Of a stretch of DNA of 64,000 bases, positions 6,832 through 6,860 are shown piece by piece. The stretch lies in NCBI RefSeq assembly GCF_013122565.1, contig NZ_CP053258.1. One strand, written 5' to 3'. Position 1 is the first letter of the stretch. Each line of letters opens with the position of its first letter. Made by a program: the position numbers and the translations under genes. Under the pieces are notes generated by a model. It saw nothing but the letters and a program-made list of their open reading frames with translations, had not been told where the DNA came from and did not search any database. This DNA is from Escherichia coli (GTDB lineage: Bacteria > Pseudomonadota > Gammaproteobacteria > Enterobacterales > Enterobacteriaceae).

Positions 6832-6860
6832 CCTGATTCAATGTGTAACATTGAATCAGG
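6832..6860 (-). terminator. Perfect palindrome downstream of the sulfatase gene (terminator or attenuator candidate)
   Basis: CCTGATTCAATGT-GTAAC-ATTGAATCAGG; on the minus-strand transcript the stem is followed by UUCUUUUCUUUG. Confidence 0.45.

What the first reader, a model, noticed from the sequence alone, without database searches (positions are those of the whole stretch)
6832..6860. Perfect 12-bp inverted repeat between the sulfatase and the downstream Cys-rich gene
CCTGATTCAATGT-GTAAC-ATTGAATCAGG is a perfect palindrome with a 5-nt loop. On the transcribed (minus) strand it is followed by a U-rich tract, then immediately by the RBS and start of the next gene. It could be an intrinsic terminator separating the sulfatase from the third gene, an attenuator, or a dimeric regulator binding site; the symmetric half-site TGATTCAATG is also operator-like.
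Basis: seen in the sequence. Interest (0 to 1): 0.35.

Follow-up and report, generated by a model that had tools for sequence, protein, structure and literature searches.

The report
Conserved terminator hairpin after sulfatase gene
The palindrome is a real, evolutionarily conserved RNA hairpin with a U-rich tail that most likely acts as a leaky transcription terminator after a sulfatase gene; in E. coli it sits where the sulfatase's maturase gene has been lost, and overall it is an ordinary kind of element with an interesting history.

Summary
Window 6832-6860 is a perfect 13-bp inverted repeat with a 3-nt loop, 14 bp with a basal G-U on the minus-strand RNA. Its dG is -19.4 kcal/mol and the tail is UUCUUUUCUUU. 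About 0.01 such hairpins are expected per 64 kb.

The window is E. coli chromosome. A porin-sulfatase-third gene insert lies between dnaJ and nhaA and is carried by 1275 of 5426 complete genomes.

The hairpin belongs to a single-copy element of about 69 nt: a conserved 22-nt motif, the hairpin and a U-tract. It follows the orthologous sulfatase in Escherichia, Salmonella, Klebsiella, Citrobacter, Kluyvera and Phytobacter. The stem sequence changes but pairing is kept: 9 of 14 pairs are compensated and 93% of cells are paired. G-U wobbles favour the gene strand, so it works as RNA, not as a DNA operator.

In most genera a radical-SAM sulfatase maturase gene follows the U-tract directly. Escherichia and at least three other lineages have lost that gene but kept the element.

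Best reading: a moderate-strength intrinsic terminator that ends most sulfatase transcripts and lets a fraction read through. The conserved 5' motif is unexplained.

The parts
6909..8402 (-). Sulfatase gene (497 aa). The active-site motif is LSSPSR, with Ser at the formylglycine position.
   Evidence: Pfam Sulfatase, E 1e-58; RefSeq coordinates; translation; active-site comparison.
6884..6908 (-). A/U-rich spacer between the sulfatase stop codon (6909-6911) and the conserved motif.
   Evidence: Sequence. About 2 of 28 positions differ between the two E. coli alleles, counting the stop codon. Only loosely conserved between genera.
6862..6883 (-). Conserved 22-nt motif TATGCCTTTCAGGGCTATGCCC (consensus TATGCCACTTAGGGCnnTGCCC). 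It contains a possible 4-bp helper hairpin GGGC-NNU-GCCC that abuts the terminator stem. Function unexplained.
   Evidence: Alignment A3 shows invariant TATGC, GGG and CC columns. RNAalifold predicts the helix. Single copy per locus.
6831..6861 (-). Terminator hairpin: 14-bp stem including a basal G-U, with a 3-nt loop. The perfect palindrome of the finding is 6832-6860.
   Evidence: dG -19.4 kcal/mol. Terminator scan. Covariation: 9 of 14 pairs changed on both sides, 93% paired against 27-44% in slid controls, 0 of 500 shuffles reach the observed values.
6821..6830 (-). U-rich tail UCUUUUCUUU. The first 7 nt, together with the T at 6831, form the conserved block TTCTTTTC.
   Evidence: Four invariant T columns in 19 species. 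Retained in lineages that lost the downstream maturase gene.
6798..6823 (-). Junction spacer where the maturase gene is missing. It is unalignable between the E. coli alleles and overlaps the 3' end of the U-rich tail by 3 nt. It also carries the non-conserved ATG at 6813-6815 and a promoter-like TTGACA.
   Evidence: 21 of 25 ungapped mismatches between the alleles. No significant similarity to maturase genes. Promoter-like hit at 6822-6794.
6777..6797 (-). Conserved translation-initiation region of the third gene: TATTCGCAGGAAGTGGATATG, with SD AGGAAG at 6785-6790 and ATG at 6777-6779.
   Evidence: Conserved in Escherichia, Salmonella and Citrobacter directly after the maturase stop codon; the Klebsiella version is more diverged but keeps CAGGGAG.
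5535..6779 (-). Third gene (414 aa). It is transposase-derived: an IS1/IS1595-type zinc ribbon, an HTH and an RNase-H-like core. It is syntenic with the sulfatase across genera.
8422..9183 (-). Tsx/OmpK-like outer-membrane channel gene, the first gene of the insert.
   Evidence: Pfam Channel_Tsx; RefSeq 'outer membrane protein OmpK'.
6856..6882 (-). Possible 8-codon mini-ORF (MPFRAMPA*) that overlaps the motif, with its UGA inside the 5' arm of the terminator. Speculative.
   Evidence: Present in 17 of 27 variants, extended or broken in the others. No properly spaced SD. Codon-frame test inconclusive.

Best explanation
The palindrome encodes an RNA hairpin that, with its U-tract, forms a Rho-independent (intrinsic) terminator at the 3' end of the sulfatase cistron. 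It is of moderate strength, so it most likely stops a large share of transcripts after the sulfatase and lets the rest read through. Ancestrally the read-through transcripts carried the radical-SAM maturase gene, the transposase-derived third gene and, in some genera, an arylsulfotransferase gene. That makes it an internal operon attenuator giving much sulfatase and little maturase, while also giving the sulfatase mRNA a protected 3' end. In Escherichia the maturase gene has been lost immediately after the U-tract, so the same element now sits directly upstream of the third gene. Shown here: the structure, its covariation, its strand specificity, the conserved U-tract, the position, single-copy status, the constraint within E. 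coli, and the missing maturase gene. Inferred: that termination actually occurs, that it is partial, and that its role is to set expression ratios.
For: Stability: dG -19.4 kcal/mol, z -7.8. The terminator scan picks the site on the gene strand in E. coli (both alleles), Salmonella, Klebsiella and Citrobacter. A d'Aubenton-Carafa-type discriminant is +15 to +21 on the minus strand and -33 on the plus strand. Classic terminators in the same window score +18 to +60, and orthologs score +10 to +31. In 19 enterobacterial species the stem has 9 of 14 pairs with changes on both sides and 93% of cells paired, against 27-44% in slid controls, and 0 of 500 shuffles reach the observed values. RNAalifold independently predicts the stem. 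G-U cells number 21 against 5 A-C cells, so pairing favours the sense-strand RNA. Between the two E. coli alleles the loop-closing pair changed U-A to C-G and another pair changed A-U to G-U. Four T columns of the tail are invariant. The tail is kept in Escherichia, K. oxytoca, K. spallanzanii, Kluyvera intermedia and P. massiliensis, which all lack the maturase gene, so the element is tied to the upstream gene. In Salmonella, Klebsiella and Citrobacter the maturase SD and start follow the U-tract within about 10-25 nt and no sigma-70-like promoter is called, so the maturase must be expressed by read-through. Within E. coli, the region from the stop codon to the U-tract differs at 7 of 88 sites where flanking genes have pS 0.26-0.57 (P <= 1.7e-5), while the adjacent spacer is unalignable. 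There is one copy per locus and per genome. A precedent exists: internal terminators with long stems and lower-U tails that set operon stoichiometry (PMC9045158).
Against: There is no transcript-end or expression data, so termination and its efficiency are not shown. The stem is A/U-rich in its upper half and the U-tract is interrupted by C, so efficiency could be low. Termination alone does not explain the strongly conserved 22-nt motif upstream. More distant relatives (Atlantibacter, C. amalonaticus, C. freundii M-21) have a different hairpin at this position with weak or no U-tract and negative scores. Scandinavium and Buttiauxella have no spacer at all. An intercistronic hairpin therefore need not be a terminator and is not indispensable. 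An SsrB ChIP study lists STM0036 with a '5'-IGR-overlap' peak and a two-gene unit (PMC2837388). If STM0036 is the maturase, which I could not verify, this would hint at an internal promoter near the element.
Confidence: 0.72

Rival explanations
1. The hairpin is mainly an mRNA 3'-end protector or processing barrier. Transcription runs through, the polycistronic RNA is cleaved, and the hairpin blocks 3'-5' exonucleases, so the sulfatase segment outlives the downstream segment. This would be differential decay rather than termination.
For: Distant relatives carry GC-rich hairpins at the same position without a usable U-tract. Protective structures that shape operon stoichiometry are common in E. 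coli (PMC5927463). The stem is long and stable.
Against: Four invariant T columns and a U-rich tail are conserved in all 19 species, including those without the maturase gene. A pure exonuclease barrier does not need them. The two roles are not exclusive.
Confidence: 0.12
2. The motif plus terminator is the body of a small RNA derived from the sulfatase 3' UTR. The conserved 22-nt motif is its seed and the hairpin with U-tail is its Hfq/ProQ-binding terminator. It would act in trans on other mRNAs.
For: The motif is conserved in sequence from Escherichia to Phytobacter while the terminator stem drifts freely. The whole stretch from stop codon to U-tract is constrained within E. coli. The element survived at least four independent losses of the neighbouring gene. 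An A/U-rich stretch precedes it.
Against: No Rfam family matches. There is no above-background complementarity to the start regions of the operon's own genes in three species. No expression data are available. The locus is absent from about three quarters of E. coli genomes, which is unusual for a core regulator.
Confidence: 0.1
3. It is a translation-coupled attenuator. An 8-codon mini-ORF (MPxRAxPx) starts at the invariant AUG in the motif and stops at a UGA inside the 5' arm of the terminator. A ribosome on that stop would prevent hairpin formation and allow read-through into the downstream genes.
For: The AUG is invariant. The first 8 codons are kept in 24 of 27 variants and the UGA lies in the stem in 17 of 27. 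Variable columns fall 4/0/3 on codon positions 1/2/3.
Against: There is no Shine-Dalgarno at workable spacing. The stop is lost in the C. freundii complex and in Phytobacter, and the frame is broken in Kluyvera sp. and P. massiliensis. The synonymous/non-synonymous count is no better in this frame (7/6) than in another (8/8). The variable positions are equally well explained as hairpin loop nucleotides.
Confidence: 0.04
4. It is a DNA site: a palindromic operator for a dimeric regulator (possibly the zinc-finger/HTH third-gene product), or a relic transposon end recognised by that transposase-derived protein.
For: The palindrome is perfect in this strain. The adjacent gene encodes a DNA-binding, transposase-like protein. 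The outer stem positions (CCTGA...TCAGG) are fairly conserved.
Against: Inner half-site sequences differ completely between genera while pairing is preserved. In many species symmetry holds only through G-U pairs, which are mismatches in DNA. No second copy of the half-site or the motif exists in any locus, promoter regions included. The element is kept next to the sulfatase, not next to the third gene.
Confidence: 0.02

Closest known systems
Canonical Rho-independent (intrinsic) terminators of Enterobacteriaceae
   Same: A stable stem-loop on the sense strand just after a stop codon, directly followed by a U-rich tract. It is recognised by a consensus scan and by a positive discriminant score.
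   Different: The stem is longer (13-14 bp) and more A/U-rich, the U-tract is interrupted by C, and the score is lower than the window's classic terminators (+15 to +21 against +45 to +60). In most genera it is followed at once by a co-directional gene that must be read through.
Internal (intra-operon) terminators that set operon stoichiometry, e.g. those downstream of substrate-binding-protein genes in Clostridial ABC importer operons (PMC9045158)
   Same: A stem-loop after the first, highly needed gene and before genes needed in lower amounts. It has the longer stem and lower U content that the paper reports as typical of internal terminators.
   Different: Different phylum and gene family (sulfatase and maturase). 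The efficiency here is unmeasured. An additional conserved 22-nt motif sits upstream.
Protective RNA structures that drive differential decay of polycistronic mRNAs in E. coli (Dar and Sorek 2018, PMC5927463)
   Same: A conserved structure at a cistron boundary that could stabilise the upstream segment.
   Different: According to the abstract those structures are mostly inside coding regions. This one is intergenic and carries a conserved U-tract.
3'-UTR-derived Hfq-dependent small RNAs of enterobacteria (e.g. CpxQ, SroC, DapZ; recalled from general knowledge, not checked here)
   Same: A conserved sequence block immediately upstream of the parent mRNA's terminator hairpin and U-tail.
   Different: No evidence for a separate RNA species, chaperone binding or targets. 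No Rfam family matches.
REP/BIME and other dispersed extragenic palindromes
   Same: An intergenic palindrome between co-directional genes.
   Different: Single copy per genome, with no relatives elsewhere in the window, in 37 loci or in the metagenome hits.

Membership tests
Intrinsic (Rho-independent) terminator | Stable stem-loop in the nascent RNA | tested here: met
   14-bp stem, 3-nt loop, dG -19.4 kcal/mol, z -7.8.
Intrinsic (Rho-independent) terminator | U-rich tract immediately 3' of the stem | tested here: met
   UUCUUUUCUU has 8 U in 10 nt. Four invariant T columns across 19 species.
Intrinsic (Rho-independent) terminator | Sense-strand orientation downstream of a coding region; strand-specific signal | tested here: met
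   48 nt after the sulfatase stop codon. Discriminant +15 to +21 on the minus strand and -33 on the plus strand. The G-U bias favours the sense strand.
Intrinsic (Rho-independent) terminator | RNA 3' ends at the U-tract, or termination in vitro | not testable with these tools
   No transcript-end data were available.
Internal operon attenuator (partial terminator) | The downstream co-directional gene lacks its own promoter and depends on read-through | tested here: inconclusive
   In Salmonella, Klebsiella and Citrobacter the maturase SD and ATG lie about 10-25 nt after the U-tract and no sigma-70-like promoter is called. Activator-dependent promoters cannot be excluded (SsrB lead). The E. coli window allele has a promoter-like TTGACA-17-GATATT in the junction spacer.
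Internal operon attenuator (partial terminator) | A step-down in transcript level across the element | not testable with these tools
   Needs RNA-seq or qRT-PCR.
Palindromic operator for a dimeric DNA-binding protein | Half-site sequence conserved among orthologous loci | tested here: not met
   Inner stem sequences differ (GATTCAATG, GATCCGG, GGCTCAG, GATCTCTC) while pairing is kept.
Palindromic operator for a dimeric DNA-binding protein | Symmetry valid in duplex DNA, and further sites in regulated promoters | tested here: not met
   21 G-U cells would be DNA mismatches. No other half-site within 2 mismatches in the island or in orthologous loci.
Dispersed repeat (REP/BIME/ERIC/MITE) or transposon end | Multiple copies per genome, or a paired inverted end | tested here: not met
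   Median of 1 place per carrier genome. One covariance-model hit per locus. No partner repeat.
Any Rfam 15 RNA family | Covariance-model match | tested here: not met
   Only chance-level hits (E 3-8, far below the gathering scores).
3'-UTR-derived small RNA | Conserved single-stranded seed upstream of the shared terminator | tested here: inconclusive
   A conserved 22-nt motif is present, but it may be structured and no target complementarity was found in the operon.
3'-UTR-derived small RNA | A discrete stable RNA species that binds Hfq or ProQ | not testable with these tools
   No expression or binding data were available.
Leader-peptide (translation-coupled) attenuator | A translated short ORF that overlaps the terminator | tested here: inconclusive
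   The ORF is present in 17 of 27 variants with its stop in the stem, has no SD, and the frame test is not specific.

The most novel reading that the evidence does not exclude
The roughly 69-nt element is more than a terminator. The invariant motif directly upstream of the freely covarying stem may be (a) the seed of an undescribed small RNA derived from the sulfatase 3' UTR, or (b) an 8-codon mini-ORF whose stop codon sits inside the terminator stem, making read-through dependent on translation. In either case the element was important enough to survive at least four independent deletions of the neighbouring maturase gene.
Probability: 0.15. Interest if true: 0.5.

Novelty: new member of a known kind. 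Interest (0 to 1): 0.3.

Why it matters
On its own this is a routine regulatory signal. It matters in three ways. First, it corrects the annotation: the gene order and the start codon of the downstream gene. Second, it shows that the E. coli version of this accessory sulfatase locus has lost its dedicated maturase while keeping the upstream gene's 3' element under selection. Third, it offers a compact, phylogenetically validated example of an internal terminator that probably sets enzyme-to-maturase ratios. The unexplained conserved motif and the surrounding oddities are better starting points for experiments than the hairpin itself. Those oddities are a Ser-for-Cys active site under strong purifying selection without a cognate maturase, and a domesticated transposase fixed in the operon.

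Tried and rejected
- **Operator idea.** I searched for the half-site in the window and in orthologous loci and found none.
- **Dispersed repeat or mobile-element end.** This was rejected by copy number and the absence of a partner repeat.
- **Rfam.** No family matched.
- **Metagenome scan.** The degenerate motif returned 120+ stretches. Of the 80 that were listed and checked, only 17 were true by the covariance model, and all of those lie after the orthologous sulfatase. Four further weak model hits were unrelated.
- **Deletion scar.** I first thought the Escherichia junction spacers were recognisable remnants of the maturase 3' end. Local alignments against five maturase genes were no better than shuffles, so I withdrew that.
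- **Mini-ORF coding test.** The ATG frame is not distinguishable from another frame.
- **Small-RNA target test.** Against the operon's own start regions, nothing rose above background.
- **Internal promoter.** No sigma-70-like site is called in Salmonella, Klebsiella or Citrobacter. Only weak, non-conserved hits appear in E. coli.
- **Literature.** Locus-tag searches (STM0034-38, c0021/22) gave nothing specific except an unverified SsrB ChIP lead.
- **Plus-strand terminator.** Rejected: score -33 and no converging gene.

Full report
**Observation.** Window 6832-6860 reads CCTGATTCAATGT-GTA-ACATTGAATCAGG. This is a perfect 13-bp inverted repeat with a 3-nt loop, slightly better than the 12 bp and 5-nt loop reported. 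On the minus-strand RNA a basal G-U extends the stem to 14 bp (6831-6861). The hairpin folds at -19.4 kcal/mol, with z = -7.8 and 0 of 200 shuffles as stable. In simulated 64-kb sequences a perfect stem of 13 bp or more with a 3-8 nt loop is expected 0.01 times. Most of the few comparable hairpins in the window look like classic terminators. The minus-strand tail is UUCUUUUCUUU.

**Context.** The window is E. coli chromosome. On the minus strand it carries dnaK and dnaJ (10052-11212), then a three-gene insert, then nhaA (4117-5283) and nhaR. The insert consists of:
- a Tsx/OmpK-like channel gene (8422-9183);
- a sulfatase gene (6909-8402);
- a 414-aa 'IS1/IS1595 zinc-binding domain' protein gene (5535-6779).

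The sulfatase/third-gene junction is present in 1275 of 5426 complete E. coli genomes, once per genome. It occurs as two very different alleles: about 221 genomes at 95-99% identity to the window and about 1054 at roughly 89%, the latter being B2-type strains such as ATCC 11775 and ST131.

The conserved start is ATG 6779, preceded by AGG(A/G)AG. The hairpin therefore lies 48 nt after the sulfatase stop codon and 52 nt before the next start.

**Test within E. coli.** In the B2 allele the hairpin is GCCTGATTCAGTGC-TAC-GCATTGAATCAGGT. The loop-closing pair changed on both sides (U-A to C-G). One pair went from A-U to G-U, which still pairs only in the minus-strand RNA. The stem and the block TTCTTTTC are conserved, but the next 25 nt are unalignable (21 of 25 ungapped mismatches). 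The 21 nt carrying the third gene's SD and ATG are conserved again. Flanking genes differ at synonymous sites by pS 0.26-0.57. The 88 nt from stop codon to U-tract differ at only 7 sites (P <= 1.7e-5 at the most conservative rate). The element is under purifying selection inside E. coli.

**What lies at this position elsewhere.** Orthologs of the third gene exist across Enterobacteriaceae. In Salmonella, Klebsiella quasipneumoniae, Citrobacter, Kluyvera and Scandinavium the order is channel, sulfatase, radical-SAM/SPASM sulfatase maturase (390-404 aa), third gene, and sometimes an arylsulfotransferase, followed in several genera by nhaA. E. coli and E. albertii lack the maturase gene.

A scan of species-representative genomes with a sulfatase alignment gave 54 loci. 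In all members of the Escherichia-Salmonella-Klebsiella-Citrobacter-Kluyvera-Phytobacter group the sulfatase stop codon is followed by four blocks:
- an A/U-rich spacer;
- a conserved motif, TATGCCACTTAGGGCnnTGCCC;
- a hairpin of variable sequence;
- GGTTCTTTTATT.

Where the maturase gene is present, its SD and start codon follow the U-tract within about 10-25 nt.

The maturase gene is missing in all Escherichia (E. coli both alleles, Escherichia sp. MOD1-EC7003, E. whittamii, E. albertii), in K. oxytoca and K. spallanzanii, in Kluyvera intermedia and in Phytobacter massiliensis. It is truncated in S. diarizonae. Its presence in most lineages and in the outgroups implies several independent losses. 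In the first four groups the motif, hairpin and U-tract were kept. The junction spacers do not align significantly to any maturase gene, so only the conserved boundaries define the missing segment.

**Structure evidence.** On a MAFFT alignment of 19 species (A3) the 14-pair stem has 9 pairs with changes on both sides and 93% of cells paired. The same measure is 27-44% when partners are slid by 1-3 columns, and no shuffle out of 500 reaches the observed pairing, covariation score or number of compensated pairs. RNAalifold predicts the same stem plus a 4-bp GGGC/GCCC helix abutting it. Excluding the basal pair there are 21 G-U cells against 5 A-C cells, so pairing is better on the gene strand.

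A covariance model built from A3 finds exactly one full-length hit per locus, on the sense strand only (57-87 bits). It finds none in more distant sulfatase loci and one in the window. Of the 80 metagenome loci listed from the pattern scan, 17 are true by the model, and all 17 lie directly after an orthologous sulfatase. They add further compensated variants. Rfam has no matching family.

**Mechanism.** The element has the anatomy of an intrinsic terminator and is called as one in every genus tested. A d'Aubenton-Carafa-type score gives +15 to +21 on the minus strand and -33 on the plus strand. Orthologs score +10 to +31, and classic terminators in the same window score +18 to +60. I recalled the formula from memory and used modern energy parameters, so these values are approximate. 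Moderate strength fits the arrangement: the maturase gene has no room for, and no detectable, sigma-70 promoter after the hairpin, so it must be expressed by read-through.

I therefore read the element as a leaky internal terminator that yields abundant sulfatase mRNA with a protected 3' end and less message for the catalytic maturase and downstream genes. A published precedent in Clostridia describes internal terminators with longer stems and lower-U tails that set operon stoichiometry (PMC9045158). Retention of the U-tract in lineages without the maturase gene argues that the element serves the upstream gene. It also argues against a pure exonuclease barrier, which would not need a U-tract. 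The two roles can coexist (PMC5927463). Termination itself, its efficiency and its purpose are inferences; no transcript data were available.

**What does not fit neatly.** The 22-nt motif is conserved in sequence while the stem next to it drifts, and termination alone does not require that. I considered three readings:
- *A helper hairpin.* GGGC-NNU-GCCC fits most species, but K. oxytoca fits an alternative GUAUG/CAUAC helix instead.
- *A seed of a 3'-UTR-derived small RNA.* No complementarity to the operon's own start regions was found.
- *An 8-codon mini-ORF.* It would start at the invariant AUG and end at a UGA inside the terminator's 5' arm. It is present in 17 of 27 variants. It lacks a usable SD, is extended or broken in several lineages, and the synonymous/non-synonymous pattern (7/6) is no better than in another frame (8/8).

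None of these is established. More distant relatives have unrelated hairpins with poor U-tracts, or no spacer at all, so the terminator form is specific to one clade.

**Rejected readings.** A DNA operator is rejected because the half-sites are not conserved, the symmetry depends on G-U pairs, and there are no further sites. A dispersed repeat or transposon end is rejected because the element is single-copy with no partner. A plus-strand terminator is rejected by the score of -33.

**Comparison and novelty.** This is a new, phylogenetically well-supported member of a known kind: an intrinsic terminator acting inside an operon. It is not in Rfam, and I found no paper describing it. Interest is modest (0.3). 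The more unusual material is in the surroundings:
- loss of the maturase gene;
- the Cys-to-Ser change at the sulfatase nucleophile, with dN/dS of 0.02-0.03;
- a domesticated transposase fixed in the operon;
- hyperdivergent alleles within E. coli.

Noticed in passing
window 6798-6823 (junction); compare L007 3786-4976, L009 3801-4973, L011 3780-4976: The radical-SAM/SPASM sulfatase maturase gene lies between the sulfatase and the third gene in Salmonella, Klebsiella quasipneumoniae, Citrobacter, Kluyvera sp., Phytobacter and the outgroups. It is missing in all Escherichia and, independently, in K. oxytoca and K. spallanzanii, Kluyvera intermedia and P. massiliensis. It is truncated in S. diarizonae.
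   Followed up: yes
window 6909-8402 (-), active-site codon in the LSSPSR motif: All Escherichia sulfatases have Ser at the formylglycine position (LSSPSR). All 21 non-Escherichia enterobacterial orthologs checked have Cys (LCSPSR), including those that also lost the maturase gene. The Escherichia gene is nevertheless under purifying selection as strong as elsewhere: dN/dS 0.02-0.03 against 0.025 for Salmonella-Klebsiella. From general knowledge, Ser-type sulfatases need a radical-SAM maturase, so this enzyme either borrows AslB or YdeM in trans or has a changed function.
   Followed up: partly
[not shown]
   Followed up: partly
window 4117-9183 against L002: The two E. coli alleles of this region are hyperdivergent, with a gradient in synonymous divergence (dS): 0.08 in dnaJ, 0.095 in the channel gene, 0.43 in the sulfatase, 1.07 in the third gene and 0.32 in nhaA. 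The third-gene value equals the E. coli-E. albertii distance. E. whittamii carries the B2-like junction and Escherichia sp. MOD1-EC7003 the window-like one. This suggests an old polymorphism or import between Escherichia lineages.
   Followed up: partly
window 6794-6822 (-): This is the best sigma-70-like match in the 4.9-kb island scan: TTGACA-17 nt-GATATT, 10 of 12. It lies in the junction spacer right after the U-tract. Its predicted start would fall inside the third gene's SD, and it is not conserved in the other alleles. It may be a chance or junction-born promoter.
   Followed up: partly
window 6856-6882 (-): An 8-codon mini-ORF (MPFRAMPA*) starts at the invariant AUG of the conserved motif, with its UGA inside the terminator's 5' arm. 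Conservation is partial and the coding test is inconclusive.
   Followed up: yes
window 1097-1136: A perfect 16-bp inverted repeat with an 8-nt loop (ATGATATTGGCAGAAA...TTTCTGCCAATATCAT) lies inside the 616-aa ORF 292-2142. That ORF corresponds to a fimbrial usher annotated as partial in a related genome.
   Followed up: no
L004 99-2411; L001 7628-8740: There are strain-specific IS insertions in the island. One chicken isolate has an IS66 element inserted a few bases after the third gene's ATG. In the genome closest to the window an IS4-like IS421 sits next to mokC.
   Followed up: no
window 9314-9339 (+): An imperfect palindrome, TACTTTTACACCCGGGTGTGGAGGTA, lies in the 600-nt gap between the channel gene start and mokC/hokC. 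It is flagged as terminator-like on the plus strand.
   Followed up: no
L028, L029, L031, L034, L043 (spacer after the sulfatase stop codon): In a more distant sulfatase-maturase clade (Atlantibacter, Franconibacter, C. freundii M-21, E. pulveris, C. amalonaticus) the same intercistronic position holds unrelated GC-rich hairpins with weak or no U-tract and without the conserved motif. Buttiauxella and Scandinavium have no spacer.
   Followed up: partly
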